Shown here: positions 3,173-34,295 of the stretch, in pieces
How positions within the stretch are numbered: position 1 is the stretch's first letter
How the letters are laid out: every line of letters begins with the position of its first letter
Assembly (NCBI GenBank): GCA_016204585.1
Contig: JACQKH010000045.1
Coordinates: 1 to 39,659, forward strand
DNA: 39,659 nt
Reading direction: 5' to 3'
From: Candidatus Kerfeldbacteria bacterium
GTDB taxonomy: Bacteria > Patescibacteriota > Patescibacteriia > SBBC01
Made by a program: the position numbers and the translations under genes
The notes under the pieces: model-generated
Told to the model about the DNA's origin: nothing
Database searches by the model: none
What the model saw: only the letters and a program-made list of their open reading frames with translations

Positions 3173-3250
3173 GCGCCCGTAGCTCAGTCCGGATAGAGCA
3201 TCAGCTTGCGGAGCTGGGGGTCGCAGGTTCAAATCCTGCCGGGCGCACCA
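3173..3250 (+). tRNA. tRNA-Arg(GCG)
   Basis: GCGCCCG/CGGGCGC acceptor, anticodon arm TCAGC-TT-GCG-GA-GCTGG, GGTTCAAATCC T-arm, encoded CCA. Confidence 0.93.
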
Positions 3251-4135: not shown

Positions 4136-4225
4136 TGGCGGAGAGGGTGAGATTCGAACTCACGGTGGCCTTTCAGCCACAACAGTTTTCAAGACTGTCC
4201 CTTTAAACCGCTCAGGCACCTCTCC
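4136..4225 (-). tRNA. tRNA-Ser(TGA)
   Basis: GGAGAGG/CCTCTCC acceptor, ACAGT-CT-TGA-AA-ACTGT anticodon arm, long variable arm, G73 and CCA. Confidence 0.95.
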
Positions 4226-4239
4226 GCCATGGTGCTGGG

Positions 4240-4379
4240 TTCAAGACCGTCGCTTTCGACCGCTCAGGCACCTCTCCGCCACGCTGCGGGACAAGACTGT
4301 CCCTTTTCCTGCCACCTTAATCTAGCATTTCTTAGGAAGGCGGGATCCCGCAGGAGGCGGGACAACCGCTCCGGCATCC
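4240..4379 (-). repeat. Two degenerate copies of the tRNA-Ser(TGA) 5' half
   Basis: 4240-4281 reads TGGCGGAGAGGTGCCTGAGCGGTCGAAAGCGACGGTCTTGAA on the minus strand. 4292-4306 plus 4364-4379 form a further copy split by palindromic inserts. Confidence 0.75.
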
Positions 4380-5621: not shown

Positions 5622-5715
5622 TGGCGGAGGGAGTGAGATTCGAACTCACGATAGGGGTTTAACCCCCTATAACAGGTTAGCAACCTGCCGCCTTCAGCCA
5701 CTCGGCCATCCCTCC
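5622..5715 (-). tRNA. tRNA-Ser(GCT)
   Basis: GGAGGGA/TCCCTCC acceptor, GCAGG-TT-GCT-AA-CCTGT anticodon arm, long variable arm, G73 and CCA. Confidence 0.95.
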
Positions 5716-9585: not shown

Positions 9586-10497
9586 TCAAGGATTTTTACT
9601 CGCCGAGTCCATTTGGCGGAGCGCGCGAACCCGCTCCTCGATCGGCGGGTGGGTCATGAAGAGCCGTTTAAGCTTGCGACCAGAGTTGCCGAAAGGGTTG
9701 GTGAAAAACATGTGAGCAGTGGCGTCGTTGGCGGTGGCTAGCGGCCTGGAGTTAAGACTCTGAATTTTTTCCAGCGCCTTGGCCAGACCCTCGGGATATC
9801 TAGTCAACAGCGCGCCCGAAGCATCGGCCAGCAACTCGCGGCGGCGCGAGACTGCAAAATGCACGAGCTGGCCGATGAGCGGAGAGAGAATCAGGAGGAC
9901 AATGCCGATGAGCGCCAGTACGCCGGCGCCGCGATCGCTGCTACGCCGTCCGCCGAAGCGACCGGAGTAGAAGAACCAGCGGGCCAGCAGCGTGACTGCG
10001 TTCACCAGCATCAGCACCAGCATCAGGTAGCGGATGTCGAAGTTCCTGATGTGACTGAGTTCGTGGGCCAGCACTCCCTCAAGTTCTTCGTTGGCGAGCT
10101 TCTCGATCGCACCCGTGGTAACGGCGATCGAGGCGTGCTTTGGATCTCGGCCGGTGGCGAAGGCGTTGATGGAGGGATCGGTTATTAGATAGAGCTTGGG
10201 CATCGGCGTCCCCGCGGCCATGCCCAGATTTTCCACCAGGTTGTAGAGATAGGCATTGTCCGGTTTCGAGATCGGACCTTTCGCGCCGGCGACAGCCAGA
10301 GCGACCCGATCACCGGCGTAGTAACCACCAAGCGTCATGCCTAGAGCGATGAGGAGAGCCAGGAAGAGCCCGCCCAGGCCATAGTCGGTGAATTCGCCGA
10401 TAATCCAGCCGAGCCCGGCCACGAACAGCACAAAGAATGTAAGCAGCAGGGCGCTCTTGAGCTTGTTACGCGAAATGTAGTCGTAGGTCGTGGGCAT
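9586..10497 (-). CDS. htpX: M48 zinc metalloprotease HtpX
   Basis: NAFATG, HELSH, RRRELLAD, THPP..ERV. Confidence 0.93.
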   Translation of the reverse strand: MPTTYDYISRNKLKSALLLTFFVLFVAGLGWIIGEFTDYGLGGLFLALLIALGMTLGGYYAGDRVALAVAGAKGPISKPDNAYLYNLVENLGMAAGTPMPKLYLITDPSINAFATGRDPKHASIAVTTGAIEKLANEELEGVLAHELSHIRNFDIRYLMLVLMLVNAVTLLARWFFYSGRFGGRRSSDRGAGVLALIGIVLLILSPLIGQLVHFAVSRRRELLADASGALLTRYPEGLAKALEKIQSLNSRPLATANDATAHMFFTNPFGNSGRKLKRLFMTHPPIEERVRALRQMDSASKNP

Positions 10498-10506
10498 GAG
10501 TGGGTG

Positions 10507-10575
10507 AGCTTGTAGCTTTTAGCTGATAGGTGGCAGCAAAAAATTGAGCCGCTAAAAGCTAACAGCTACCAGCTA
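10507..10575. repeat. Heptamer-periodic inverted repeat (TAGC/GCTA family)
   Basis: AGCTTGT-AGCTTTT-AGCTGAT-AG ... GCTAAAA-GCTAACA-GCTACCA-GCTAG between lemA and htpX. Confidence 0.8.
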
Positions 10576-11127
10576 GAACTTCACTGCTACCGGCTGTTTC
10601 TCGGCTTCGCCTTCGACCTCGAAGAACTCGCGCGGCTTAAAACCGAACGTTTGAGCGAGCAAATTGGTGGGGAAAGTCTGCTGGCTGGTGTTAAAGTCGC
10701 GAACATTGCCGTTATAGAATCGGCGGGACGCTTGGATTTTATTCTCCGTGTCGCTTAGTTCGTCTTGGAGTTTGGCGAAATTCGCGCTGGCTTTTAACTC
10801 GGGATAGGCTTCGGCGATGGCGAAGATCGACTTAAGAGTTTGCGACAGCGCGTTTTCGGCTTGTGCTTTGTCGTGCGGCGTTTGCGCACCCATGGCCGCG
10901 GATCGCGCTTTGGTAACATTTTCGAACGCTTCGCGTTCGTGCTTAGCGTATCCCTTGACTGTTTCCATCAGGTTGGGAATCAGGTCGTAGCGGCGCTTGA
11001 GCTGAACATCAATATCCGACCACGATTCGTTCGTGCGGTTGCGCAGACTGATCAGCCGGTTGTACATGGTCATGATCCACAGCAGGATCAGCACGATGAT
11101 ACCGACGATTATCCAGGTGATAGTCAT
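10573..11127 (-). CDS. lemA: LemA family protein
   Basis: YN.L..LRN....WSDIDVQLKRRYDLIPNL, E.YPELKA..NF..LQ.EL..TENKI. Confidence 0.95.
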   Translation of the reverse strand: MTITWIIVGIIVLILLWIMTMYNRLISLRNRTNESWSDIDVQLKRRYDLIPNLMETVKGYAKHEREAFENVTKARSAAMGAQTPHDKAQAENALSQTLKSIFAIAEAYPELKASANFAKLQDELSDTENKIQASRRFYNGNVRDFNTSQQTFPTNLLAQTFGFKPREFFEVEGEAEKQPVAVKF

Positions 11128-11177: not shown

Positions 11178-11693
11178 TTAGTTTGTAAGAATATCGATCC
11201 GGTCAGCGACCACGCTCGTTTGGCCGTCAATCACGTCAATTGAGTGGACGTCCACTGAACCGCCGACCTTAATATCCGAGAAGGTCGCCGCGGTCCGCGG
11301 TCGGGCGGCATTCGCGTCGAGACTAACCGGCGCTTTACCGATCGTGGCTACTTCGGTGTTCTGCAACATGTTGACCAGGATGATCTGCTCGCGGGCGTTG
11401 CCGTTCACGTTCTGGAAGAGGCGAACCGCTAAGCGGTTGTCGTTGATTTCCTTGATGATGCCGACGAACGAATGGCGGCCGGCCGGCGCATCAGTGGTGA
11501 TTCTGGTGGTCGTGTTTTGCGCGGCGACCGAACTTCGCGTTGCCTGGACGTTGACTGGTCGATTCTTGTACCAAATCGTGAAGATCGAGAGGGCGCCGAG
11601 CATCGAGGTCAAGACTATCACGATTGTTACTAAATGTTCATTACCCCATAGTCGTGCGCCGGCACGAGTTTTTTTTAAGGAGATTTGTTCCAT
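11178..11693 (-). CDS. Membrane-anchored protein with OB-fold-like (DUF5666-like) domain
   Basis: One TM helix, then G.IKEI.......V...T.V...FSDIKVGGSV.V....VADRIDI. Probable ATG start at 11693. Confidence 0.65.
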   Translation of the reverse strand: MEQISLKKTRAGARLWGNEHLVTIVIVLTSMLGALSIFTIWYKNRPVNVQATRSSVAAQNTTTRITTDAPAGRHSFVGIIKEINDNRLAVRLFQNVNGNAREQIILVNMLQNTEVATIGKAPVSLDANAARPRTAATFSDIKVGGSVDVHSIDVIDGQTSVVADRIDILTN

Positions 11694-11738
11694 TGACTTT
11701 TCGAGTAGAATGTGGTTTTGCCGAACGTGAAAATCTTG

Positions 11739-11792
11739 TCGACAAAACCGCTTTCTTTTGGTAGTATATGTAGGAAGGCGACTGTCTGTCAA
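11739..11792. promoter_or_regulatory. Overlapping divergent sigma70 promoters
   Basis: Plus: TCGACA (11739), N17, TG-extended TAGTAT (11762). Minus: TTGACA (11792-11787), N18, TATACT (11768-11763). Confidence 0.6.
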
Positions 11793-11821
11793 AGGACTAA
11801 AACAAGTCGTTAGCTTCAACC

Positions 11822-12724
11822 ATGCGAAAAATTCAAACACGCTCTAAATCAACCAAGCGTTTCGTGCTCATGGCTGTGCTCGGCGTACTTGGGATTTTTG
11901 TTATCTTTAGCATTCCGCTTAAAGTACGTTCAGTAACTTACGAGGCGCCGAGCGGCTCGCCGCCGGTAAGCGACAGTTCGGCAGCGCTCAACGTTTCGTC
12001 CTCAATCCAGACCAAGATCGGAGGTTTAACGCTTAACAACGGACTGACCATTGGGAACAATTCAAACTTAAACGTCTTTGGCGACGTTTGCTGGAATGGA
12101 GTTTGTAAGAATTCGTGGGCTGAGGTTTCCGGAGTGTCGGCCATCGAGAGGTTCGTGAAATTGATATCGGACCCTACCGACCCAAGCGGCTGGGCTGACC
12201 TAACTGGATCAGACAACGCCACGACTTTGAAACTCAACTCGCCGGTGCCGACGTTTCCGGCCGCTGCTCCGGGAGTGGATGCCGGGGTGTTTGGTCAGGA
12301 CGACGGCTCGAGTGCTTCGGCGAGCTACGGAGTGGCTGGTTATGCTAGCCGGAATAGCGACAAAAGTTATGGCATCTACGGTACTTCGTCGGCAACAAGT
12401 CCGTCCTGGGCCGGGTACTTTGCCGGAAACGTGGCGGTAAGTCCGGACAATGACCTGATCGTCGGCGGATCGATTACGCAAGGCAACGACTCGAACGTGA
12501 GCGAGTTGTGCATCAATGACGTCTGCCGTTCGGAAATCCTGCTGACCGGTGACCAGTACTGGACCGTCAGCGGCAACGACCTTCAAGTCGCTGATACCGG
12601 CTTGAATCTGGCGGTCGGCGGAAAAGATTCGCGGGCCAGTTTTTTCGTCCAGAACAACGCCAGCCGTTTGAACGTCACGCTTAAAGTGAACGGGGTCGGC
12701 AATAGCGCTGACCTGTCGCTATGA
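11822..12724 (+). CDS. Secreted fibre-like surface protein, family A paralogue 1
   Basis: Signal peptide; LNVSSSIQTKIGGL, CWNGVC..SW, GVxG repeats, WAGYFAG, ELCINDVC. Confidence 0.75.
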   Translation: MRKIQTRSKSTKRFVLMAVLGVLGIFVIFSIPLKVRSVTYEAPSGSPPVSDSSAALNVSSSIQTKIGGLTLNNGLTIGNNSNLNVFGDVCWNGVCKNSWAEVSGVSAIERFVKLISDPTDPSGWADLTGSDNATTLKLNSPVPTFPAAAPGVDAGVFGQDDGSSASASYGVAGYASRNSDKSYGIYGTSSATSPSWAGYFAGNVAVSPDNDLIVGGSITQGNDSNVSELCINDVCRSEILLTGDQYWTVSGNDLQVADTGLNLAVGGKDSRASFFVQNNASRLNVTLKVNGVGNSADLSL

Positions 12725-14136
12725 ACAAGTCACTGGTCTATGCTCCGCCGATCGTAGTAGTGACATTTGTCACGGTGCTGGTTGGGCTGCGCGTTTCCGC
12801 CGCCACCTTTTCAGCGCCGAACTTGCCCGAGCCCGGCGGAAATATCTCATTGCCGTTGAACACTTCTTCAAGTCCGCAGACCAAGGCCGGAGGATTGACC
12901 GTGGAGGGGGATGCGACAATCCAGAACGGCTTAACGCTCGGTCAGGCCGGTGGCTCCAGCAAGATCTGCTGGAATGACGACGGTACCGGCCTGAACTGTC
13001 GTAATAACTGGGGCGAGCTCAGTACGGTCACTGGTTACTTGCGCTTGAACTCGGGCGGAGCTGGTCCAGCCGATACCGGACACATTCAAATACAAGGCAC
13101 CTCCGGATCCAGTGATCCGGTCGCCACCGTCACGGTTCGCGCCGGCACGACAACCGCACCTTCCGAGTCGTCTTACGGCGTTTACGGAGTAGCCGTTGGC
13201 GGAGTTCCATCCGCGATAAGTTACGGCGTTCTCGGTCAAGCCACGGTGAATTCATTTCAGCGCGCCGCGATCTTTGGGAGCAGCGCCGGTTTCCCGAATG
13301 CTTGGGCCGGGTACTTTACCGGCGGCGACGTGGGCGTGGCAGATCAATTTGATCTGGCTGTTGGCGGCACCGCCGTCCTGAATAACACCACTCAGCTATG
13401 CCTCAACAGCACTTGCATTGATAGTTGGCCGCCTGATGCGGGAAGCGGTTTCTGGGAGCGAAGCAGTTCGAATCTTCACCCGCTTGATCCGACCAAGTCA
13501 ATAACCGTAGCCGGCAGCGTGTCGACGGCTCCTTTTCATGTGGCGGTCATCTCGGACGGCTCACCGCCAGATCCGGACAAGGCAGATCTGACCATCATTG
13601 CCGGCACAGCTAAATTCAATCAGTACATTGTCGGCACTCCGCCGCCGTGTAATGATCCGCCTGGCACCTGTTACCTGCCGGCCGCTGATACTTGCGGCGA
13701 TGGAATATGCAGCAACAAGGAATGCGATTCCGGAACGACACCGGGCTGTACCACCGCCGACCCGAACCACTGCCCGGCTGATTGCGACATCACCCCGCCG
13801 GATGACGTCGGGGTTGACACTGAGCTCGAGGTCTGCGCGGGGAGCGGGTGTCCTCCGCCAACTCCGCCGACTCTCTACGTTAAGTGGACTAACCCAGGTA
13901 ATTCGGATTTTGCCGGTACCAGAGTCATCGTGAGTTCCGACCGCTATCCGACCGGGCCGACTTACATTGGTGACCTCGGGATCATGAAAGATATCGCTAA
14001 ACCCGGGACCACGTATAGCGCACCATGCAATCTTAGCACGCGGTACTATGCTGCTCTATACGCTTACGACCAAATGGGTAATTTCGCGCCCGGCATTCTC
14101 TACGATCCGCTCTGCACCACGCTGCCTGTCCAGTAG
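12721..14136 (+). CDS. Secreted fibre-like surface protein, family A paralogue 2 (Cys module + FN3-like C-terminus)
   Basis: PLNTSSSPQTKAGGL, YGVYG repeats, WAGYFTG, LCLNSTC..SWP, CGDGIC...CPADC, WTNP..SDF.GT...YDQ.GNF; ATGA overlap. Confidence 0.75.
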   Translation: MNKSLVYAPPIVVVTFVTVLVGLRVSAATFSAPNLPEPGGNISLPLNTSSSPQTKAGGLTVEGDATIQNGLTLGQAGGSSKICWNDDGTGLNCRNNWGELSTVTGYLRLNSGGAGPADTGHIQIQGTSGSSDPVATVTVRAGTTTAPSESSYGVYGVAVGGVPSAISYGVLGQATVNSFQRAAIFGSSAGFPNAWAGYFTGGDVGVADQFDLAVGGTAVLNNTTQLCLNSTCIDSWPPDAGSGFWERSSSNLHPLDPTKSITVAGSVSTAPFHVAVISDGSPPDPDKADLTIIAGTAKFNQYIVGTPPPCNDPPGTCYLPAADTCGDGICSNKECDSGTTPGCTTADPNHCPADCDITPPDDVGVDTELEVCAGSGCPPPTPPTLYVKWTNPGNSDFAGTRVIVSSDRYPTGPTYIGDLGIMKDIAKPGTTYSAPCNLSTRYYAALYAYDQMGNFAPGILYDPLCTTLPVQ

Positions 14137-14155
14137 CGACTTGGGCTTTTGAAAC

Positions 14156-15502
14156 ATGAAACATATATTACGTCATAATTCAGTCCTCGTCATTCGCCTG
14201 ACCACGGCCTTGGTCGCGATGGCTGCTGTTTTAGCGGCTGGCCGGGTGGCTGCTCAGATCAATCCATTCAGTCCAACTGAACCGCCAGGAAAGCTTCCCG
14301 GGTATTTCGACGTTCTTCCCTTGAATACATCGTCATTTTCTCAGGTTAAGGAAGGTCCTCTTACGGTCAATGGGCCGTTCACCGTGGGCCGCAGCATTGT
14401 CGGCAGCTTCTTGAACGTTAGCGGTTCGATTCTTTGGAACAGCGACCGGCGCGACAACTGGGAAACAATCGGCAGTCGGAATTTCGTTCACCTCTATGAC
14501 CTTTCGCATCCGGTCGGAATTGCCGATGTGGGCGTCGCGTCTGTGGTCGGTGACACCAGCGGAACCGCAACTTTTACGGCCAAGGCCGGCACCGGGAGAA
14601 ATACCGCTGGGGTTTCCGGCTACTCGGCGGCCACTGGTTCCGGACTAAGCGCCGGGGTGGTCGGTGAAACACAGAATCCGACCGGTTACGGCGTTTACGG
14701 AACGGTTGGGTCGAACACCCAGGCCTGGGCTGGGTATTTCTCGGGCAACGCCGGGATTGCCGCGCCGCGCGATTTAATCATCGGATCAGTCGGCGGCGGT
14801 GTTTCCGCAGCCCGGACGAACGTTATTTCCGAAGTCTGTCTTAACGGCGACTGCCGTTTGACCTGGCCGCCATCCGGCGGAACGCTTTGGTCAGTCAACG
14901 GCGCGACGCTGTGGCCGTCGTCGGAAACGGTCAGTCTGATCGCGGGCGGCACTGAACCAGACGCGGTAAAGCGTTGCGTGACAAATCCGAGCGTACCGGA
15001 TCCCAACAAGTCGAAATTTAGCGTGATCAACAATCCTAATTTCACTTCGGACGTCTGCCTGGTTAGCGGGACTGCCTCGTTGGGACAAATTGTTATTGGC
15101 GCACCAGTCAGCGGAACGCCGACCGCCACTACCTGCGGCGACGGGATTTGCAATGGCAACGAGACCGGAGGCTACGGCCAGCCGACCTATTGCGGGAAGG
15201 ATTGCGACTTCACTGCACCAAACTCGGTTACCGGCGCCACTGCCAGCGGTTCGCCGCAGGTCACGATCAGTTGGACCAACCCGGCGGCCTCGGATTTCTC
15301 CGGCACCAAAGTGGTCATGACCATCGGTACGCCGCCGTCTAAGATTCAGGGCGCCAGCCTGATCGGAACGGAAGTTTCGCGGCCGTCAAGCAGCTTCACC
15401 AGCGCGCCCCTGACGCCGGGCACGTACTACTTCGGTCTCTACAGCCACGACCAGGCCGGCAACTTCGCGACCGGAGTTATTGTTGAGGTCAGATTACAGT
15501 GA
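14156..15502 (+). CDS. Secreted fibre-like surface protein, family A paralogue 3 (Cys module + FN3-like C-terminus)
   Basis: PLNTSSFSQVKEGPL, WAGYFSG, VCLNGDCRLTWP, CGDGIC...CGKDC, WTNP..SDFSGT...HDQAGNF. Confidence 0.75.
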   Translation: MKHILRHNSVLVIRLTTALVAMAAVLAAGRVAAQINPFSPTEPPGKLPGYFDVLPLNTSSFSQVKEGPLTVNGPFTVGRSIVGSFLNVSGSILWNSDRRDNWETIGSRNFVHLYDLSHPVGIADVGVASVVGDTSGTATFTAKAGTGRNTAGVSGYSAATGSGLSAGVVGETQNPTGYGVYGTVGSNTQAWAGYFSGNAGIAAPRDLIIGSVGGGVSAARTNVISEVCLNGDCRLTWPPSGGTLWSVNGATLWPSSETVSLIAGGTEPDAVKRCVTNPSVPDPNKSKFSVINNPNFTSDVCLVSGTASLGQIVIGAPVSGTPTATTCGDGICNGNETGGYGQPTYCGKDCDFTAPNSVTGATASGSPQVTISWTNPAASDFSGTKVVMTIGTPPSKIQGASLIGTEVSRPSSSFTSAPLTPGTYYFGLYSHDQAGNFATGVIVEVRLQ

Positions 15503-15514
15503 TCAAACCGATTC

Positions 15515-16420
15515 ATGAATAGAACAAATCAACGCCGACCAACTCCATTTCGCACACTCGTTCGAGTTCACGCCCGAACCGGTTTGGCGGTCGCGGCGGT
15601 TCTCAGTATGATCGGATTTCTCCGCCTGGCGCTGCCGGCTTGGTCGGCCACGATTACCCCGGGCGCCAACCAGAAGGTGACGGTCTATCAGGGCGTGGCG
15701 ATCGTGGCGCCTGGCGACCCGGGCGCCAGCATCATGGAGATTGGAAACGCCGGCCGGGACATTGCCAGCACCGGCAGCATCTTCCTCCGGCCGAACAGTA
15801 CCGGTTCCGGCACCCGCTTCTACCAGTGTACGGCCGGGTCGTGCTTCGGACTTCAGAATCTTGATCTGACCGGCGATTTAACCATTGGTAAGGACTTGTG
15901 TTTTTTCGGCGGGGACTGCCGTTCGAGCTGGCCACCTGGGACGACTGAGTGGAAACTAATCAACGTCTTCGGACCGGTGCTCCAGCCGAAAGTGCTGACA
16001 AACGCCGTCCACGTCGGCAGTCCCGGATCGCCGGTGCAGGGCGGCCCGGCGCTCAACGTGGCCGCGCCTGGCGGAGTCGCGACGTATGTGAACCGCGGTT
16101 CCGGTTATGCCGGCCTGTTCGACGGCAACGTGTCCACGACCGCTGACGTCAAGGTTTACGGTACGATAACCTCAAACGGACGGCCGGTCTGGGATGCTTC
16201 AAACGATGGTCAGGGGTCGGGATTGGACGCCGGGAAAATTGACGGAATGGTTGTGAGATACGAAACTCCGGACAGATGCACCGACGGTCGAGATCAGCAA
16301 GAACATCTCTATTGCCTGTGTTTTAGCGGCCGCCAGGCGGACGGAATAACGCCGCTTCCCGGAGCAGATTCGTTGGGCCGTGATTTCTACCGTTGCGCCC
16401 CGCTGTTTAATTACTTCTAG
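15515..16420 (+). CDS. Secreted fibre-like surface protein, family B paralogue 1
   Basis: Signal peptide; QKVTVYQGV, EIGNAGRDIASTG.IFLRP, LCFFGGDCRSSWP, VWDASNDGQGSGLDAGKIDG. Confidence 0.75.
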   Translation: MNRTNQRRPTPFRTLVRVHARTGLAVAAVLSMIGFLRLALPAWSATITPGANQKVTVYQGVAIVAPGDPGASIMEIGNAGRDIASTGSIFLRPNSTGSGTRFYQCTAGSCFGLQNLDLTGDLTIGKDLCFFGGDCRSSWPPGTTEWKLINVFGPVLQPKVLTNAVHVGSPGSPVQGGPALNVAAPGGVATYVNRGSGYAGLFDGNVSTTADVKVYGTITSNGRPVWDASNDGQGSGLDAGKIDGMVVRYETPDRCTDGRDQQEHLYCLCFSGRQADGITPLPGADSLGRDFYRCAPLFNYF

Positions 16421-18364
16421 ATGCCAATGCGAAAGCAAGTGAAAAAACGTTATCGGCAAAGCACCAGCCTTCTCCGCAATAGTTTGATGGCCATTTTGCT
16501 CGTGCTATTGCTGACGGTGTTCCGGTCAACCCTCAACGTGAAATCCGCCTCGGTGACCGGCGCTCCGGAGAAACTCAAGGTAACGGCCGGCGTTCTGATC
16601 GTCAATACCGGCGCCGCCAGCGACAGCATCCTCGAACTCGGCAACGCCGGCCGGGATATCGTCTCAACCGGCGACATCTACTTCCGGCCGGACAACACCT
16701 CAGCCGGACTCCGCTTCAGCGGGAATACGACTGATAACACGCAGGACTTGCTGGTGACCGGCGATTTGAGCGTCGGCCGGAACATTTGTTTGGGCGGCGT
16801 CTGCCAGAGCGCCTGGCCGTCAACAATTGATCTATGGGAAACAGTGACCAACGCCGGGTTTACCTACCTTCAGCCGAAGCAAGATGCCGGAATCAACCCG
16901 GCCATCCAGATCGGCGATCCGGTCAAGTTCTGCGCGATTGACGGCAACGAATGTACCTACTCGGGCGATTGTCGTCAAGAGAACTGCATTGCCAATTCAT
17001 GCGAACAAAGCGGCGGCTATTGCGAAGATTACACCTGGTGTCCGAACCTGGCTTGCACTGGCGCAGGCGGGGTGTCTGGCAAGAACGCCCTCGAGGTCTA
17101 CGGCCGCACCACCGGCAGCGCGCTGCAAAGCGGCGCAGGTTACACCTTTTTCGGCGAGTTTGACGAAGCAGGCAATCCCATCCCCGGCAGCGGCAACGTC
17201 AGGGTCAGCGGCATTCTCGACGTGAATAAACGTGATGTCAACTGGCTGTTCAATGATATTTCGAACCGTTCATCTCTGAAGAGGCTGGCCGCAGGAGTTG
17301 ATGTGTTTACCAAAGCGTTCCACTACCTGAACAATGATCCATCCCCGTTCGAGATGCCGACGGAAATTGACGCGGACACGCTTATCGCTGAAGCAGCGAC
17401 GCCTTTCACCAATCCGTCAACCAAGAAAAAGGACTTCTTTTGGAAGAAAAAAGACGTGACGTCCCAATCGGAGGGCTATACCTACCATTATGACGCGTTG
17501 TGCGTGGCTTCGGATTATACAAATCTTTGTCAGGGAGGGACTGCCAGCGGAAATCCCTGTGTTACCCCGGCGCAGGTGACTGCGTGCACAAATGGCGGCG
17601 GAACCTGCAAAACCCTTTGTAAAAACGAACAACAACTGTGTAAAGCCGAGATGGCCGGTCGCTGCGCGGCTGGCAGTGGAAAGGATATAGGGCTTGGATA
17701 TAACGTTGACTTTGAAAATTTTCCATGTAACCCGGCGGAAAATGGGCCGCTACCCGGCGGATTAAATCCGGCCTGTGGAACCGGAACCTGCACCACCTCA
17801 TCTTGTCCTTCCGGATACAACAACTGCTCGCCGCCGATAGTTTCAGGCGAGTGTCAGAGACTAGCATCGAACGGAGGTATTACTCTTACCGGAAGGACTT
17901 GTCGAAGTTCGAATGACTGTCAATCTACGACTAACCCGCTTGATAATTGGTATCCAGGAGAAATCTGCGTTTTTGGCAAGCTTTTTGTCTATGAACCAGG
18001 GGCGGGAGCGGTTTCCTGTCAAAATAGTGAACAGACCTACGGCAGCGCTTCTTGCGAATATAAATGTAAGCAGACAAATACCGCCGATTGGTATAATAAT
18101 ATCCCCGGGGTCTATCCAGCTTGCACCGGTCAAGATCAATGCACGTCTTTGAACCCTGACGACATAAACATTTATCGAACCTCCGGCTACTGCACCTGGC
18201 GAAATAGCTATCCCCAGGATCGGACCGGCCAGCGGTGGTTCTGCGATTGCGTTCTCCATGAATCGTTGCCATACACCACGACCACAACCGGCAGCGGCGG
18301 AGACCTATGCACGAATCGGTTTTTCAGGGAGCAACTTCCAATTACTGCGGTTTCACCGCCATGA
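16421..18364 (+). CDS. Secreted fibre-like surface protein, family B paralogue 2 (Cys-rich)
   Basis: ELGNAGRDIVSTG.IYFRP, ICLGGVCQSAWP, IDADTL, long Cys-rich C-terminal half. Confidence 0.75.
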   Translation: MPMRKQVKKRYRQSTSLLRNSLMAILLVLLLTVFRSTLNVKSASVTGAPEKLKVTAGVLIVNTGAASDSILELGNAGRDIVSTGDIYFRPDNTSAGLRFSGNTTDNTQDLLVTGDLSVGRNICLGGVCQSAWPSTIDLWETVTNAGFTYLQPKQDAGINPAIQIGDPVKFCAIDGNECTYSGDCRQENCIANSCEQSGGYCEDYTWCPNLACTGAGGVSGKNALEVYGRTTGSALQSGAGYTFFGEFDEAGNPIPGSGNVRVSGILDVNKRDVNWLFNDISNRSSLKRLAAGVDVFTKAFHYLNNDPSPFEMPTEIDADTLIAEAATPFTNPSTKKKDFFWKKKDVTSQSEGYTYHYDALCVASDYTNLCQGGTASGNPCVTPAQVTACTNGGGTCKTLCKNEQQLCKAEMAGRCAAGSGKDIGLGYNVDFENFPCNPAENGPLPGGLNPACGTGTCTTSSCPSGYNNCSPPIVSGECQRLASNGGITLTGRTCRSSNDCQSTTNPLDNWYPGEICVFGKLFVYEPGAGAVSCQNSEQTYGSASCEYKCKQTNTADWYNNIPGVYPACTGQDQCTSLNPDDINIYRTSGYCTWRNSYPQDRTGQRWFCDCVLHESLPYTTTTTGSGGDLCTNRFFREQLPITAVSPP

Positions 18365-19254
18365 CAAAAGCATTAAAAAACTCTTTCATCATAATCTGGT
18401 TGGTGGCGGCGATTGGGATTTTCCGTTTCAGCCCGTCCGCCTTTTCCAAACCGCTAACCTCCGGCGCCAGCCAGAAGCTGACTGTTTACGAAGGCGTTAT
18501 CACCATTGACCACACCCCTGGCGGAAACATCCTGGAGCTCGGCAACGCCGGCCGGGACATCGCCTCAACCGGCGAGATTTTCGTCCGCCCGGGAAACACC
18601 ACGGCCGGCACCAAGTTTTATGCCGCCAGTCCATCCGAACCGCAAAATCTGTTGCTGACCGGAAGACTGACGGTCAATAAGGGTTTGAACTTTAACGGCC
18701 AATACATTACTGGCTGGACTACCGGCAGCTCCTTCTGGTTGCCCGCGGCCGGCAATTACGTCGAGCCGAACCCGCTGGCTTACGGAGTTCAGTTCAACAG
18801 CGATACCAACGTCTTGGCGAATAACGGCGCAAACCAGAGCGCGCTGTACGTAGTCAACTATGACCTGTCAGGATTGGCCGCCAAGTTCGAATCCCCGCCG
18901 CCAATTAATCAGACAATCAACATCTACGGCAACCTCGAGGCGACCGGAAATATCAGGAGCGGCGCTGAAGGCAACCTGTTTGACGTTTGGACTGACTCGA
19001 ACGACGGATATAAGGCCGCGCCGACCGGACCTGATTATCTGGATTTGCTGGATGCGGACTTGCTCGACGGGGTTAACCTTGACCTGGCCAAGGGAATCGA
19101 CCGCAATCCTCCTCAGAATCCGGCTTGTGATATTAATCTTGAGGCCTCATCTAACATGTCGTGTCTGTGCCGCGCAAATCCCAACAATCCGGCTGTATTC
19201 GAGTGCATCGAACTCACCTGCAACAGACCGGGAGATTGTGTATCATCCTCCTAA
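18361..19254 (+). CDS. Secreted fibre-like surface protein, family B paralogue 3
   Basis: ATGA-coupled start at 18361; QKLTVYEGV, ELGNAGRDIASTG.IFVRP, VWTDSNDG...LDADLLDG, small Cys-rich tip. Confidence 0.75.
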   Translation: MTKALKNSFIIIWLVAAIGIFRFSPSAFSKPLTSGASQKLTVYEGVITIDHTPGGNILELGNAGRDIASTGEIFVRPGNTTAGTKFYAASPSEPQNLLLTGRLTVNKGLNFNGQYITGWTTGSSFWLPAAGNYVEPNPLAYGVQFNSDTNVLANNGANQSALYVVNYDLSGLAAKFESPPPINQTINIYGNLEATGNIRSGAEGNLFDVWTDSNDGYKAAPTGPDYLDLLDADLLDGVNLDLAKGIDRNPPQNPACDINLEASSNMSCLCRANPNNPAVFECIELTCNRPGDCVSSS

Positions 19255-19262
19255 TAGCCACC

Positions 19263-22200
19263 ATGAGAAGAAAGTTAGTAGAACCCATCTCAAAATTCCA
19301 TTCCGGCTCTGCGGAGCGGAATTTCGGGCTGCGGGACTTCGTCTCGGATTCGAAATATCACGGATATTCCTCATCCTCCGACTCGTCCCTCGCCACGAAA
19401 TTCCGCCCCTCGGCTCGAAAGCGAATTTTGAGATGGGTTCTAATCATTTCAGCGGCGTTTAATCTCAAGGTTCTGAAAAGCTTCATGCTGGTTGTGATGG
19501 CTGGAGCGATTTTTGTCACCATTCCCTCCAGCAGCCGGGCCAGCAATTTCGTCAAGGTCGGCTCGCCGTTCAGCGCGCCGATCAACCTCTACGGCGTGAC
19601 CACGCTCTACGACCGGGCGGAGAAAACTTACAAGGCCTGGGCGGTTGGCGGTCTGGTCTTCACCGATCCCGCTACCGGAACGGAAACCACAACTACGGCA
19701 GTCATGATGTACTTCAATGGTTCGTATTGGGCAAAGGTGCCGATTCCCCCCGTCGGCCGGCCGCTACGGTCGGTTTCCGTTATCCAGTATTTAAGAACAA
19801 TTGACTCGGCCGGAAACAGACTTACCCAGCCGAAATGGGCGCTTTCCGGCTGGGCCGTAGGCGATAAAGTGCCGGATCCCGACAACCCAGGCATGTATAT
19901 CGGCGCGACCATTTTAAAGCTCGATCCGGACGTAAACGCCACTAATCCGCTGGCCTTCAACTCCTGGACCAAGCAGCGAAAGATTAAACCGCCTTCATCG
20001 CTGGCTGGTAAACCGTGTCCCGAAGACTTTGTTGAAAATCTGACCCTGTGCACCAACTGGACCGAGAACAATCTCAAGGCCGTGGCCGCGGTTAACGATC
20101 GCTTGGCCGTGGCCGTCGGCGAGGCCGGCACGGTGCTGCACTATGATTTGTCGTTCGATAAGTCTATTTACACTTCGCCGTCGTACGATACAACTGTTGA
20201 GTATTGGAATTCGCAATCAGGATTTGCTCCAACCGACACCATCAACGCGGTAACCTTCCTGGACGAAGCTCATGGCTGGCTGGCTGGAGCTAACACTAGT
20301 GTCAACGAAGGCCGGGTTTGGAAGTACACCAAACAAAGCAATCAGTACGACACGATGGGATCATTAAATATTCCGGACATTATTTACACAAGCATTGCAG
20401 CCACCCTTCGTCCTTCGCTGACGTCGGGAGACCCCTTAAAAAGCGTATTGTGGCTAGGTACAACCTTTAGCGCTATCCCGTCCTACGGCCTCATCCGTTT
20501 CGATGAGAAACTTAATCGACTTTCTTCTACTTACGGGACCGGCGCTCCGGTTAGCGGCATAAGTTTGACCAGGCGCGCCGGCGGCCAGGATCAGAACCTC
20601 CTCCAGAACGGTTCATTCAACGCCGACCGGAAAGACGAGAGCGTCAGTAAGCGCATTCCGGACGGCTGGGAACTCAGCAGTCCGTATTACGGCGGGTCAA
20701 CGAATTTTACTTCGCCGCTGAATCTCCAATCAGCAAATCTAGTTGATCGAGTGTCGGGCAATCCGGCCTATGTTGGCGAGTCGGCCCAGTCAGTGACCAA
20801 GACTGACGGCGTAACTGCTAGAACGCTCGTGATCCACCACTCAGGACTCGCCGATTATTTCAATGCCTTTTCAAACAATTTTCCAAACGATACCTATGCG
20901 AGTTTTTCGAGTGGATCAACGCCTGTCAGTTTGCAGATGGAAGATGCGACAACTCCGCTCATGTCAACGCTAGTTCCTGGCCAGGGTGATTATTTCTCAC
21001 TCCCTACCCACGCCAACAGCAACGGATACGTTGGTCCGCCGGTTCAGGTCGGCCTATCCATCAACGGATTTTTGCGTATTCCCGGTGTGGAGTCATCCGA
21101 TCGGCAGTACGAGTTTAAAATCGAGCATCCGAAGGGCTGGGTGAATTTCGATATTGAGAATGATGTCAGCGGCGACACGCTGGTCTGCCACGGCGGCAGT
21201 AATCACGGCGCAGCGTGCACCAGTTTGTCCGATCCGTCCTGCACCAGCGGCGGCGGCGTCTGCAGCCCGAGCTCCCAGTATCCGGCTAACAGCGCTGATC
21301 CGGTAACTGACAATTCTCTGATTGCTTGGAACCCGGGAATTTGCCAGAATGATCCGTTGATCCCTACCAGAATTTGCGTGGGGGGAAGTAACGAAGGCGA
21401 AGTCTGTGATGATCCGACTGACTGCTTGGACGGCGGGACCTGCTTCCCGAGCACGCAAAAGGTTCAGTGCTTCAACAACGACGAGTGTAACATCGGCCGG
21501 TGCTTTGAACCGAACTACTACAATAGTAATGATAATAATATATACAGCGTGGGGCCAATTCGCTGCACGAATGATGAAACATGCCAAAGCGTATATGGCA
21601 ACAATGCCAGTTGCGTGCCGTTTAATTCCCCCCCGAATTGCGTAGACGCTCCGTCAACGGGAGAATCAACCTCTAAGCCAATTGAGTTCAGGCAAGGAGA
21701 CGGGTTTAAAGCCCGCGTCTGCGACGGTGGTGCTAATAGCGGGCGGTCGTGCGTAGACAGTTCACAATGCCCCGGCTCAGCGTGCGGGCTGAAGGGACTG
21801 GGGTGGTTTCCGTTTACTCTCCGTTATTTTCAGCCGTGGAAAAGGGCTTGCTCGGGGAGCCCAATGATGCGTTGTTATGACAACTCTGATTGTGTCGCGC
21901 CGGCAATCTGTGAGAATACGGATTTGAGCTACTACTATGAAGGGCAATGCACCAAGAAAGACGGAACAGTGACTGGAACATGTTCCAGCAATGTCAATGA
22001 TGCAAATGGCATTAGCCCCTGTGGTTACGAAAACGACGCGTACGGAAATCCCACCGTCAAGATCAACTGTCAGAATATACGGACTAAACCTGACCGCTCG
22101 AGCTTGAAGGTGTCCTACCGTGAAGTTGGCGCGCCGACTTGGAATCCCGTGCAAGATTCCGACCTGCTGGTGTCGGCCAACCCTAACTTCGTTCCGGGCG

Positions 22201-25185: not shown

Positions 25186-25214
25186 TAGACAGATAGCTTT
25201 TTTTGTGCTATAAT
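25186..25214 (+). promoter_or_regulatory. Promoter of the pilus assembly operon
   Basis: TAGACA, N17, TATAAT with a TG extended -10. Confidence 0.75.
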
Positions 25215-25266
25215 TTTTGCATGGAATGTTACTTGCCGAGCACCGTTTTTGCGGGTGGTGGTATAC

Positions 25267-26376
25267 ATGGCACTCTTTAAGGGTCGGGGAACAAGTTTTC
25301 TCGGAGTTGACATCGGAACTTCGAGCATCAAGGTGGTGGAATTCCGGAATGAGGGAGGACGTCCGCGACTGGCAACCTACGGCTTTCTCGAACGGCCGAC
25401 GAACATCATCAAACTCGATTCGGTCCAAGAGCAGAACGACGTGGCCGCGGCTTTGACGCAGATCGTTAAAACGTCGCGGGTCAACACCAATCGGGCCGTC
25501 GCCGCCCTCCCGAATTTTTCAGTCTTCACTTCGATTATCAGTTTGCCGGTGATGCCCAAGAAGGAGATGTACGCGGCCGTGCGCTGGGAGGCGAAAAAAT
25601 TCGTGCCGATGCCGATCGAGGAGATGGTGCTTGATTGGCGGTTGTTGAAAGAAAAGAATAAATCACCTAGTCAAACCACCGAATCGGTCAGCCCCGAAGA
25701 TGGGAAAGCGACCGAAGAGAAGGGGCCCAAAAACCTGCGCGTTCTGTTGACCGCCGCACCGAAAAACCTGGTTAAGCGGTACATCGACATTTTTAAGAAT
25801 ACCGGCTTGCGCTTAGTCAGTCTGGAAACCGAATCATTCGCGCTGGAGCGCTCGCTCCTCGGCGGCGAACCAGGATCGTTCATGATTGTTGACGTCGGTG
25901 CCGTCGCCACCAACATCACCATTACGGTCAACGGCGTGCCTCTCCTCAATCGCTCGATCGACGTCGGCGGCGACACCATCACCAAAGCCATTGCCAACAG
26001 TTTAAATGTTGACCTTGAACGCGCCGAACAGTTCAAACGAGACGTCGGCGTCCAAGGGGCGACCGGCGGCGCCAGTCAAATTCCCCGCGCCATCGAATTC
26101 GTCATTACTTCCGTCGTCAACGAAATTCGTTATGTCCTCAATCTTTATCGAAACCAAGGAGAGAAACCGATCGAGAAAGTCATTCTGGCCGGCGGTTCGG
26201 CTTTCTTGACGAACCTTCCCGAATACCTGTCAGCCACTCTGAACATGCCAGTCGTCATCGGCGACCCCTGGGCGCACGTCATCTATCCACTCGATCTCAA
26301 GCCGGCGCTCGATGAGCTGGGTCCGCGCTTCGCCGTGGCCATCGGGTTGAGCATGCGCGAAATCGTCTCGCCCTAA
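25267..26376 (+). CDS. pilM: Type IV pilus assembly protein PilM
   Basis: LGVDIGTSSIKVVE, EAKKFVP.P.EE..LDW, VDVGA..T, GGDTIT, ILAGGSA, FAVAIGLSMR. ATG at 25267. Confidence 0.93.
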   Translation: MALFKGRGTSFLGVDIGTSSIKVVEFRNEGGRPRLATYGFLERPTNIIKLDSVQEQNDVAAALTQIVKTSRVNTNRAVAALPNFSVFTSIISLPVMPKKEMYAAVRWEAKKFVPMPIEEMVLDWRLLKEKNKSPSQTTESVSPEDGKATEEKGPKNLRVLLTAAPKNLVKRYIDIFKNTGLRLVSLETESFALERSLLGGEPGSFMIVDVGAVATNITITVNGVPLLNRSIDVGGDTITKAIANSLNVDLERAEQFKRDVGVQGATGGASQIPRAIEFVITSVVNEIRYVLNLYRNQGEKPIEKVILAGGSAFLTNLPEYLSATLNMPVVIGDPWAHVIYPLDLKPALDELGPRFAVAIGLSMREIVSP

Positions 26377-33281: not shown

Positions 33282-33303
33282 GGGTTGTGAGGGAGTGGAT
33301 GAG

Positions 33304-33380
33304 TAGGTAGGCGGCATCCGCTAACTCCCCTCCACATCAGTGGAGGGGTGGCGACGCCCGTGGCGGAGCCGGGGTGGGTT
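33304..33380 (+). repeat. REP-like double-hairpin element, copy 1
   Basis: TAGGTAGGCGGC...CTAACTCCCCTCC-N8-GGAGGGG...GGGGTGG; related to copies at 34160-34220 (inverted) and 34218-34295 (direct). Confidence 0.7.
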
Positions 33381-33577: not shown

Positions 33578-34096
33578 ATGAATAATGCAAAGAAAGGGTT
33601 TACGCTCATCGAGCTCTTGGTGGTCATCGCGATCATCGGCATTTTGTCAACCATCGGTCTCGTCGCCCTGAACGGGGCGCGGGCTAAGGCCCGGGACGCG
33701 CGGCGCACCGCTGACATGCGATCCTACGCTTTGGCTTATACCAGTTATGCGGATACGGCGACGTCATTCGATACTGGCGTTGGTTGTGCACCTGAAACTA
33801 ACATCAGTGCTTGTGGAGCATTGCAAACGGCCGCCTCCTCCACGTCTTTACCAAATGATCCGACTACAGGAGCGGCAGCCGCCACAAACTCTAATGCAGC
33901 TTGTGTTGCTGCTGATAAAAATAATCCAGCTTGTAATGCCCTCGCTAACTGGGCAAGGACTGGTGGGGCGTATGCAAACTACACACTTGCATTCGAAGAT
34001 GTTAACGCGTTCTCTATCCTTCTGGAACTAGAAACGGCCGGTACCTGGGGAGCTGCGGGGTTGCATTTGTACCAGCAATCCGGCACCTTCCTGTAA
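33578..34096 (+). CDS. pilA: Major type IV pilin (prepilin)
   Basis: KKG|[28 protein letters not shown]; own promoter, SD and terminator. Confidence 0.9.
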
Positions 34097-34159: not shown

Positions 34160-34295
34160 AACCACCCCCACCGCGACCTACGTCGCGGTGACCCCTCCAT
34201 GAGATGGAGGGGAGAGTTAGGTAGGCGGCTACCGCCACTTCTCCTCCTTGCAAAGGAGGAGTACCCGTCGCGTTACACGCGACGGGGGAGGTGGT
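34160..34295. repeat. Two oppositely oriented REP-like double-hairpin elements
   Basis: CACCGCGAC-CTAC-GTCGCGGTG with CCCCTCCAT-GAG-ATGGAGGGG; CTCCTCCTT-GCA-AAGGAGGAG with CCCGTCGCGT-TAC-ACGCGACGGG. Confidence 0.75.

What the first reader, a model, noticed from the sequence alone, without database searches (positions are those of the whole stretch)
11822..19254. Two triplets of secreted phage-tail-fibre-like paralogues: candidate heterotrimeric host-attachment fibres
Seen: six tightly spaced genes, all with signal peptides. Family A (3 genes) shares LN.SS..Q.K.G.L, GVxG repeats, WAGYF.G and C(L/I)N..C. Family B (3 genes) shares K.(T/K)V..GV plus (L/I)GNAGRDI.STG.I..RP, also similar at the DNA level (~15740, 16637, 18538), and (L/I)DA-type motifs. 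The C-L/F-x-x-x-C-x-x-x-WP module crosses both families, while the C-terminal tips differ (FN3-like or Cys-rich). Known: VW..(S/G)NDG.GSGLDAD.LDG-type motifs occur in trimeric phage tail fibres. Inference: the 3+3 arrangement suggests two heterotrimeric fibres or a modular adhesin set for an episymbiont, encoded just upstream of the pilus machinery.
Basis: partly seen in the sequence, partly recalled or inferred. Interest (0 to 1): 0.8.

Follow-up and report, generated by a model that had tools for sequence, protein, structure and literature searches.

The report
Secreted tail-fibre-like proteins beside pilus genes
Six neighbouring genes in a tiny groundwater bacterium encode exported proteins built from phage-tail-fibre-like modules, at least one predicted to form an intertwined trimer, and they sit next to pilus genes as likely host-attachment fibres.

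Summary
Six tightly packed + strand genes (11822-19254) form two families of three. A1-A3 share 31-33% identity and B1-B3 share 35-38%. Each has one N-terminal signal-like hydrophobic segment. No Pfam or NCBIfam family matches. The B profile finds 1466 proteins. These include long proteins with 9-13 copies of the VW..NDG.GSGLDAD..DG module that end in the tail-fibre chaperone domain Peptidase_S74. Relatives of these are annotated as long tail fibres in cyanophages. B1 modelled as three copies gives an interface along its whole length (score 0.83, best control 0.00). A2 and A3 end in a Cys-knot plus an FN3 domain. A and B share two modules.

Across the order, the block M48/LemA, A genes, giant protein (1400-2100 aa), pilM was kept in 9 of 9 contiguous loci. 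B varies from 0 to 3 genes at the locus. One family has a single 1038-1159 aa protein that fuses A and B at the same position. One relative that lacks this pilus system also lacks A and B.

Reading: these are Sec-exported trimeric fibres of one A+B system tied to one type IV pilus system, probably adhesins. Obligate A1A2A3 and B1B2B3 heterotrimers are not supported. The evidence is computational only.

The parts
11822..12724 (+). A1, the short member of family A (300 aa). It has a signal-like N-terminus, LNVSS..QTK.GGL, two C....C...W modules and WAGYFAG, and no FN3 tip.
   Evidence: Its orthogroup with G003 and G005 has SH-aLRT 96.
12721..14136 (+). A2 (471 aa): an A core followed by a Cys-rich CGDGIC...C..DC knot and an FN3-like C-terminal domain. 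It has 16 Cys.
   Evidence: Its orthogroup has SH-aLRT 96.
14156..15502 (+). A3 (448 aa): an A core followed by a Cys knot and an FN3 domain (residues about 330-448).
   Evidence: pLDDT 77-93 over 330-448; 25 PDB matches at E<=1e-3, all listed ones covering FN3-type domains, target TM up to 0.81.
15515..16420 (+). B1 (301 aa): signal-like N-terminus, conserved N-domain (KVTVYQGV...EIGNAGRDIASTGSIFLRP), C....C...WP module, GYAGLFDGNV module, VWDASNDGQGSGLDAGKIDG motif and a Cys-rich tip.
   Evidence: (homotrimer model 0.83 against 0.00).
16421..18364 (+). B2 (647 aa), the long B type, with Cys-rich insertions and a long Cys-rich C-terminal part (36 Cys). The GSGLDAD motif is degenerate.
   Evidence: The long-B orthogroup spans families f1 and f2 with SH-aLRT 93.
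18307..19254 (+). B3 (315 aa as listed). The likelier start is 18361, which gives an ATGA overlap with the B2 stop. It has an LDADLLDG variant motif and a Cys-rich tip.
15723..15810 (+). First copy of the 88-nt direct DNA repeat that encodes the B N-domain core. The other copies are at 16620-16707 and 18521-18608.
   Evidence: 73-82% identity.
19161..25112 (+). Giant Cys-rich protein: the ORF is 1983 aa with 80 Cys. The true start is probably 19263 or about 19482. It belongs to no Pfam or NCBIfam family. Orthologues of 1410-2094 aa lie between the fibre genes and pilM in relatives.
   Evidence: C-terminal ~960 aa 24-39% identical in 7 relatives; no A or B modules.
25249..26376 (+). pilM of the adjacent type IV pilus gene set. 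It is followed by a pilN-like ORF, a pilO-like gene, pilB, a response regulator, pilT, pilC and a pilin.
   Evidence: A promoter-like site (11 of 12) lies at 25186-25214; it is a consensus match only.
11178..11840 (-). Divergent small single-TM protein. It is conserved between LemA and the first A gene in relatives (150-220 aa).
9586..11127 (-). M48 peptidase (9586-10497) and LemA (10573-11127), the conserved upstream flank of the block.

Best explanation
The six genes encode Sec-exported, disulfide-rich fibre proteins built from modules of the kind found in phage long tail fibres. They most likely fold as parallel, intertwined trimers. Homotrimers are sufficient. A and B are two parts of a single fibre system rather than two independent sets, because one related family encodes them as a single A-then-B polypeptide at the same genomic position. 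The conserved N-terminal parts would hold the fibres at the cell envelope or on a partner; the neighbouring giant Cys-rich protein is the obvious candidate. The less conserved FN3 and Cys-rich C-terminal tips would contact the target surface. The block is genetically tied to one of the two type IV pilus systems of this candidate-phyla-radiation order. The likely role is attachment to, or recognition of, a host cell alongside that pilus. Shown here: the paralogy, the shared modules, the motif-level homology to fibre proteins, the FN3 tip, the synteny and the fusion. Predicted by a model: the B1 trimer. Inferred: export, surface display, the trimeric state of A, B2 and B3, the partner, and the adhesin function.
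For: No Pfam, NCBIfam or PDB sequence relative was found. The B profile has 1466 hits at E<=1e-3 in 1.84 billion representatives, 104 of them at E<=1e-30. Of the best 150 hits, 42 are at least 1000 aa long, and 38 of those 42 carry 1-13 copies of the G.GLDAD..DG motif. Of 9 long hits scanned with Pfam, 4 end in Peptidase_S74 and 1 has Gp34_trimer plus Phage_tail_fib. hhalign of B against one such protein, P0045, gives 86% probability at VW..NDGSGSGLDADTVDG. P0045 matches 93 phage records, some annotated as long tail fiber. Three copies of B1 (residues 45-301): ipSAE 0.83 (runs 0.83, 0.85, 0.78), best of 3 controls 0.00, runs agree in at least 86% of contacts, partner pLDDT at least 73. The tool's calibration for this mark is 20 of 30 solved pairs and 1 of 23 single chains reaching it. 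Contacts are in register (226-226, 93-89, 120-115) along the whole chain. A and B share modules. The A3 tip is FN3. Conservation is highest in the mature N-domains and the motif, and lowest in the tips. In 9 of 9 contiguous loci the order is M48/LemA, fibre genes, giant, pilM. The G008 protein aligns with A over residues 9-399 (99.5%, E 3e-22) and with B over 465-754 (98.7%, E 2e-16). G001 has only the second pilus system (PilB 43% identical) and has neither A nor B. Language-model look-alikes for both A and B were HylP, T4 gp9/10 and BppL_N, all trimeric phage proteins; scores of 0.80-0.84 make this a lead only.
Against: The homology to fibres rests on short modules (about 30-90 aa), not on a whole domain with a solved structure. 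B1 alone finds no phage record by tblastn. Monomer models were poor: A3 has pLDDT below 50 over most of residues 30-320, and B1 averages 65. Fold searches with the B1 monomer gave nothing significant. No S74 chaperone is present in any of the six. The trimer was modelled for B1 only; A has no direct structural support. The signal peptides were judged by hydropathy only. Outside the order, proteins with the A-type N-terminus are not on the pilM contig (0 of 4 genomes). B genes lie away from pilM in G009, G011 and G014. pilM has its own promoter-like site. There is no expression, localisation or binding evidence.
Confidence: 0.55

Rival explanations
1. One reading: A1A2A3 and B1B2B3 each assemble 1:1:1 into a heterotrimeric fibre.
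For: Three A orthogroups are kept in family f1 (SH-aLRT 96, 96, 87). Three A genes are present in 7 of 9 contiguous loci, and also in the G003 and G011 partial loci. Three B orthogroups occur in 7 of 20 genomes of the order, and the long-B group spans two families. The mature N-domains of the paralogues are equal in length and conserved.
Against: The B1 homotrimer model passes on its own. G016 has 3 A genes and 1 B; G011 has 1 B; G009 has 2 A. Family f3 has a single fused gene, which can only homo-oligomerise. Paralogues differ by up to 350 aa in length and in their tips, so they cannot be in register along their whole length. Not tested directly.
Confidence: 0.15
2. The proteins are structural parts of the envelope apparatus of pilus system 1, not adhesins. 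With the giant protein they might form a collar, a conduit or an anchor through the cell wall or surface layer, in a lineage without a secretin.
For: The A genes and the giant are adjacent to pilM in 9 of 9 contiguous loci. G001 lacks both that pilus system and A and B. No secretin gene was seen in the window's pil cluster.
Against: The architecture, with a conserved base and a variable FN3 or Cys-rich tip, together with tail-fibre modules, is typical of receptor-binding fibres. B genes can lie elsewhere in the genome. The sequences diverge fast (orthologues 30-43% identical), which is unusual for core machinery; PilM is 61-77% identical in the same genomes.
Confidence: 0.2
3. The linkage is incidental. 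These are general surface proteins of a variable cell-surface island that happens to lie beside the pil genes.
For: pilM has its own strong promoter-like site. B genes move to another locus in three genomes. A-type N-termini outside the order are unlinked to pilM (0 of 4).
Against: The same block order is kept across three families despite 24-43% protein identity. G001 lacks the pilus system and the fibres together.
Confidence: 0.08
4. A remnant of a prophage or a tailocin: tail-fibre genes left in the chromosome.
For: The fibre-type motif is shared with S74 and gp34-type fibre proteins.
Against: No phage structural, integrase or lysis genes were seen in the window by Pfam. All six have signal-like N-termini, which virion fibres do not need. 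Chromosomal synteny is stable across three families. PHROG matches are weak or absent.
Confidence: 0.02

Closest known systems
Bdellovibrio bacteriovorus MAT (mosaic adhesive trimer) fibres, Caulton et al. 2024, PMC10769870 (passages read)
   Same: Cell-encoded rather than phage-encoded, with a signal peptide and then a conserved beta-rich N-terminal domain. Trimeric fibre of phage tail-fibre type. Diverse adhesive C-terminal tips. Several paralogues per genome. The organism lives by attaching to other bacteria. That paper itself raises possible interplay with type IV pili.
   Different: MATs are about 1000 aa, and 13 of 21 end in S74. The proteins here are 300-647 aa and have no S74. No sequence match was found to any solved chain in the Protein Data Bank copy searched; the MAT tip entries that the paper cites should be among its chains. 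The tips here are Cys-rich or FN3. The genes form one operon-like block beside pilM with a giant protein. A and B are split parts of what is a single chain in a sister family. Similarity to the MAT N-domain could not be tested.
Phage long tail fibres with repeated VW..NDGSGSGLDAD.LDG modules and a C-terminal Peptidase_S74 intramolecular chaperone (e.g. P0041, P0045; cyanophage and Vibrio phage 'long tail fiber protein')
   Same: The VW..NDG.GSGLDA..DG module and the preceding G.A..F.G.V.V.G module. A predicted parallel intertwined trimer.
   Different: One motif copy here against 5-13 in 37 of the 42 long hits. No S74. Signal-like N-termini. Lineage-specific N-domains. Cellular rather than viral context.
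T4 long tail fibre, built from separate homotrimers gp34, gp36 and gp37 joined end to end (recalled; only the listing of PMC5537660 and PMC3004832 was seen)
   Same: Several related fibre genes sit in a row. A fibre split over several genes could explain why sister lineages carry the same modules in one chain.
   Different: No evidence here for end-to-end joints. Each protein here has its own export signal. No chaperone genes of the gp38 or gp57 type were recognised.
PilY1/PilC-type pilus-associated adhesins
   Same: Sec-type exported, large, non-pilin proteins encoded beside pilus genes.
   Different: No Pfam match for any of the six or for the giant. No prepilin motif. No evidence of tip location.

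Membership tests
Phage-type trimeric tail fibre (S74 class) | Parallel intertwined homotrimer | tested here: met
   B1 only, by model: ipSAE 0.83 against best control 0.00, with contacts along residues 45-300. This is a prediction, not a measurement. A1-A3, B2 and B3 were not modelled as oligomers.
Phage-type trimeric tail fibre (S74 class) | C-terminal Peptidase_S74 intramolecular chaperone | tested here: not met
   No Pfam match in any of the six at E<=1.
Phage-type trimeric tail fibre (S74 class) | VW..NDG.GSGLDAD..DG repeat module | tested here: met
   B1 has one near-canonical copy at 225-244. B3 is partial, B2 is degenerate, and A has none. The family consensus keeps the motif.
Phage-type trimeric tail fibre (S74 class) | Viral or tailocin gene context | tested here: not met
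   The neighbours are M48, LemA, ClpB and pil genes. PHROG matches are weak.
Bdellovibrio MAT fibres | Signal peptide followed by a conserved beta-rich N-terminal domain | tested here: inconclusive
   A signal-like segment and a conserved mature N-domain are present. Homology to the MAT N-domain could not be tested: no MAT N-domain sequence was at hand, and the paper's supplements are closed.
Bdellovibrio MAT fibres | Sequence similarity to solved MAT fibre or tip structures | tested here: not met
   Profiles A3, A4 and A5 searched against all PDB chains gave only FN3 (for A) and chance-level rows.
Type IV pilins / minor pilins | Class III signal peptide with the N-methylation motif | tested here: not met
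   None of the six matches N_methyl, whereas the pilin genes at 33578, 36611 and 38551 do. The N-termini are Sec-like.
Fibronectin type III domain (tip of A2 and A3) | FN3 beta-sandwich fold | tested here: met
   A3 residues about 330-448 have pLDDT 77-93. Foldseek gives 25 PDB matches at E<=1e-3, and the listed ones cover FN3-type domains. The profile matches titin FN3 with E 2.4e-6. A2 is included by alignment only.
PilY1/PilC adhesin (for the giant neighbour) | PilC/PilY1 beta-propeller domain | tested here: not met
   The 1883-aa translation has no Pfam family at E<=0.1 and no NCBIfam family.

The most novel reading that the evidence does not exclude
This order of candidate-phyla-radiation bacteria has a cellular, split 'tail fibre' coupled to one type IV pilus system. 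What is one long A-then-B fibre chain in one family has become a kit of three proximal A genes and up to three distal B genes in the others. The separately exported trimers would re-join end to end, as the T4 gp34-gp37 segments do, on the giant Cys-rich protein as a platform. This would give combinable FN3 and Cys-rich tips for host recognition next to the retractile pilus.
Probability: 0.2. Interest if true: 0.8.

Novelty: new variant of a known kind. Interest (0 to 1): 0.62.

Why it matters
How ultrasmall episymbiotic bacteria of the candidate phyla radiation pick and hold their hosts is largely unknown. Type IV pili are implicated in cultured Saccharibacteria (PMC9894109 and PMC12206443, abstracts seen in the listing). 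These six genes, with the giant neighbour, give concrete and testable candidates for the recognition step. They are exported trimeric fibres of phage-tail-fibre ancestry, genetically tied to one pilus system. A natural fused form shows which parts belong together. This would be a second case, after the Bdellovibrio MAT fibres, of a bacterium that lives on other bacteria using phage-type fibres. It would also define two protein families that have no Pfam, NCBIfam or solved relative.

Tried and rejected
Pfam, NCBIfam and PHROGs on the six proteins gave nothing above the cut-offs. The weak rows were HYR, Chlorovi_GP_rpt, phrog_25563 (E 5.5e-6 on B1 203-245) and phrog_11445 (minor tail, E 3.6e-4 on A2).

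Word-indexed homologue searches found only 3-5 proteins each.

The monomer AlphaFold models were poor. Foldseek of the B1 monomer against PDB and BFVD gave no match at E<=0.001. S74 and gp37 rows appeared in the BFVD list only at E 0.26-2.7, so I do not count them.

The atlas look-alikes (HylP, gp9/10, BppL_N, PTL_trimer) scored 0.78-0.84, below the 0.9 bar, and serve as a lead only.

B1 against phage genomes by tblastn gave no match.

The A and B profiles do not match the giant proteins.

No variable/template repeat pair of a diversity-generating retroelement was found in the window.

Public runs: no RNA holder was listed. Four DNA runs of one study hold the stretch, and their contigs differ from it at 2 places only, so there was no sign of tip hypervariability in these data.

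Cluster look-up gave no informative names.

Literature: no paper held 'Patescibacteria' + 'type IV pili' + 'tail fiber' together. In one search, none of the 12 listed papers, out of 115 holding at least 3 of 5 terms, held a CPR term. In one search, 12 of 115 were listed. PMC13278184 was read as abstract and outline only, and it describes unrelated donor-strand-exchange pili. PMC8080830 was read as passages, and it mentions giant surface proteins without fibres. I therefore found no description of these families, within those searches only. The supplements of PMC10769870 (MAT list, capping-loop alignment) were closed and may bear on MAT membership.


Full report
WHAT IS THERE. The stretch 11822-19254 holds six + strand ORFs: A1 (300 aa), A2 (471), A3 (448), B1 (301), B2 (647) and B3 (315). 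They are packed as in an operon. A1 and A2 overlap by ATGA. The following gaps are 19, 12 and 0 nt. B2 and B3 also overlap by ATGA if B3 starts at codon 19, position 18361. Directly after them comes a giant ORF (19161-25112, 80 Cys). After a 136-nt gap that holds a promoter-like site (11 of 12; a consensus match only) comes a type IV pilus gene set: pilM, an unassigned 401-aa ORF, a pilO-like gene, pilB, a response regulator, pilT, pilC, pilins and the prepilin peptidase. Upstream, on the other strand, lie a small single-TM protein, LemA, an M48 peptidase and ClpB. The genome is 1.04 Mb in 80 contigs and about 91% complete. A relative's record is titled Candidatus Kerfeldbacteria. The only public runs holding the stretch are groundwater metagenomes.

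The A proteins are 31-33% identical to A1 and the B proteins 35-38% identical to B1, and they carry the quoted motifs. The B N-domain core is also alike at the DNA level: 88 nt at 15723, 16620 and 18521, 73-82% identical. Two modules cross the families. The first is C....C...W(P), seen as a shared 27-nt stretch and in A-profile hits on B proteins with i-E down to 1e-12 in a set of 155 proteins. The second is (W)AGYF.GNV.V, where hhalign gives 94.9% probability and E 4e-8. Each protein has one N-terminal hydrophobic segment behind basic residues, no other TM-like segment of note, and an even number of Cys beyond it. This fits Sec export and disulfides, but it is a heuristic. Only these 3+3 copies exist in the genome.

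WHAT THE PROTEINS ARE. None of the six reaches a Pfam or NCBIfam cut-off. No solved structure is related by sequence, except FN3 for the A tip. The A3 tip is an FN3 domain: pLDDT is 77-93 over residues 330-448, Foldseek gives 25 matches at E<=1e-3, and the profile matches titin FN3 with E 2.4e-6. It is preceded by a conserved CGDGIC...C..DC Cys knot.

A profile of 24 B proteins, run against 1.84 billion representatives, found 1466 proteins at E<=1e-3 and 104 at E<=1e-30. Of the best 150, 101 are at most 700 aa, and most of the listed ones match as single full-length stretches. Another 42 are at least 1000 aa and match with 3-13 stretches (most 7-13) to profile positions about 160-256. Of those 42, 38 carry 1-13 copies of G.GLDAD..DG. 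Of 9 long hits scanned, 4 end in Peptidase_S74, the trimerisation chaperone of tail fibres and spikes. One has Gp34_trimer plus Phage_tail_fib, and 4 have neither. One S74 protein, P0045, aligns with B at VW..NDGSGSGLDADTVDG. It in turn matches 93 phage records, several annotated as long tail fiber. The homology is at module level, however. B1 alone finds no phage record, and B2 and B3 keep the motif poorly.

TRIMER. Monomer models were poor: A3 has pLDDT below 50 over most of residues 30-320, and B1 has a mean of 65 with pTM 0.29. Fold searches with the B1 monomer were empty. Three copies of mature B1, with a 66-row alignment, scored 0.83 (runs 0.83, 0.85, 0.78) against 0.00 for the best of three controls. 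The runs agreed in at least 86% of contacts and the partner's pLDDT was at least 73. The tool's calibration for this mark is 20 of 30 solved pairs and 1 of 23 single chains, and it holds only roughly here. There were about 1100 contacts from residue 45 to 300. They include same-residue contacts (226-226) and i to i+-5 contacts between chains, which indicate a parallel, in-register, intertwined trimer. No solved relative exists by sequence, so a pass from memory is unlikely. This supports, but does not show, a fibre-type homotrimer. For A the case rests on the modules shared with B and with long multi-module proteins.

RELATIVES. I read the loci in 15 genomes of the order, with pilM placed. Nine have a contiguous stretch from the M48/LemA side to pilM: G000, G005, G013, G007, G012, G016, G014, G009 and G008. 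In all nine the order is fibre genes, then giant (1410-2094 aa), then pilM. The other six are cut by contig ends in or near the giant (G003, G002, G004, G011, G006, G010), and what is left fits the same order.
- A genes: three in 7 of the 9 contiguous loci, and also in the G003 and G011 pieces. G009 has two. G008 has one fused gene.
- B genes at the locus: three in G000, G005, G013, G007 and G012, with the order A,B,B,B,A,A in G007 and G012. G016 has one. G014 and G009 have none; their 2 and 3 B genes lie at another locus. G011 has its single B gene away from the A genes, on another contig.
- Across the 20 genomes of the order that are at least 85% complete, 18 have a B match and 7 have three separate B genes.

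Trees give three A orthogroups within family f1 (SH-aLRT 96, 96, 87). The A proteins of f1 and f2 form separate clades (99 and 99), so either the triplication happened twice or the copies were homogenised. For B, the long type spans f1 and f2 (SH-aLRT 93).

In a sample of 300 genomes of the phylum, full-length B was found only in the same order. Three other genomes match the motif region alone. Outside the order, proteins with the A-type N-terminus are not on the pilM contig (0 of 4).

TWO FINDINGS THAT CHANGE THE READING. First, family f3 (G008, G010) has, in the same position between M48 and giant-pilM, a single protein of 1038-1159 aa. Its residues 9-399 align with the A profile (99.5%, E 3e-22). 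Its residues 465-754 align with the B profile from the mature N-terminus on, including LELGNAGRDIAS...YLRP (98.7%, E 2e-16). It ends with the B C-terminal part. So A and B are parts of one fibre system, and a single gene, hence a homo-oligomer, can do the job.

Second, the order has two pilus systems. G001 keeps only the second one: its best PilB is 43% identical, against 66-82% for the orthologues, and it has no pilM orthologue at E<=1e-30. G001 has neither A nor B. This is one genome, 91% complete.

MECHANISM. My best reading (0.55) is as follows. These are Sec-exported, disulfide-stabilised trimeric fibres. Their conserved N-parts hold them at the envelope or on a partner, with the giant protein as the candidate. 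Their variable FN3 and Cys-rich tips reach outward, and they work with pilus system 1 in attaching to a host. Conservation is highest in the mature N-domains and the motif and lowest at the tips. Orthologues are only 30-43% identical, while PilM is 61-77% identical. That is the pattern of receptor-binding proteins. Obligate heterotrimers (0.15) are disfavoured by the fused gene, by genomes with a single B gene, by the passing homotrimer model and by the unequal lengths. The conserved A triplet keeps a hetero-complex among the A proteins open. A structural role in the pilus envelope apparatus (0.2) cannot be excluded. A phage remnant is unlikely (0.02).

KNOWN COMPARISON AND NOVELTY. The nearest analogue is the Bdellovibrio MAT family. 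Those are signal-peptide-bearing, cell-encoded trimeric fibres of tail-fibre type with a conserved N-domain and swappable tips (PMC10769870, passages read). The proteins here are much shorter and lack S74. They have no detectable sequence relation to any solved chain in the Protein Data Bank copy searched, where the solved MAT tips should be included. They carry different tips, are split or fused between lineages, and are tied to a pilus locus and a giant protein. My searches found no paper describing them (limits are given under Tried and rejected). I rate this a new variant of a known kind. All evidence is computational: there is no expression, localisation or binding evidence.

Noticed in passing
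window 38142-38507 (+): A 121-aa protein of the 23S_rRNA_IVP family (E 9e-39), with a weaker match to bAvd, the accessory protein of diversity-generating retroelements. It sits between pilin-like genes (36611-38091 and 38551-39426). No template/variable repeat pair was found in the window, and the window ends at 39659.
   Followed up: partly
window 35292-35801 (+): An IS200-like (Y1_Tnp) ORF with a weak match (E 5e-5). It lies inside the pilus cluster, just before and overlapping the start of the prepilin peptidase gene (35789-36601).
   Followed up: no
window 19161-25112 (+) and L029, L030, L031, L032, L036, L038, L039, L045: The giant Cys-rich protein has no Pfam or NCBIfam family. Its C-terminal ~960 aa are conserved (24-39% identity) in 7 relatives, while the N-terminal half varies in length (total 1410-2094 aa). 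By eye, the N-terminal part has propeller-like AVG..G repeats; this was not tested.
   Followed up: partly
G009:C2 (L043), G014:C13 (L041), G011:C2 (L042): Where B genes are not at the pilus locus, they lie beside a gene whose product begins like Fe/Mn superoxide dismutase (recognised by eye, not tested) and near a cysteine-desulfurase-like gene. So there is a second recurrent home for B genes.
   Followed up: no
Genomes G001, G006, G008, G010, G019: The order carries two type IV pilus gene sets, with PilB 66-82% against about 42% identical to the window's, plus further PilB/PilT-like ATPases. G001 appears to have lost the first set.
   Followed up: partly
window 33286-33333 and 34200-34247: A 48-nt direct repeat (73% identical) flanks the major pilin-like gene 33578-34096. 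Each copy looks internally self-complementary. It could be a terminator or a regulatory hairpin.
   Followed up: no
window 4136-4290: A 51-nt tandem-like repeat (4188-4238 and 4240-4290, 86% identical) overlaps the 5' part of tRNA-Ser(tga) on the minus strand (4136-4225). It may be a partial tRNA duplication. Other tRNAs lie at 3173-3250 (Arg) and 5622-5715 (Ser).
   Followed up: no
A-family tree: All A paralogues of family f1 cluster apart from all those of family f2 (SH-aLRT 99 and 99), although each family has three subgroups. Either the triplication happened twice, or there was concerted evolution or co-evolution among the paralogues.
   Followed up: no
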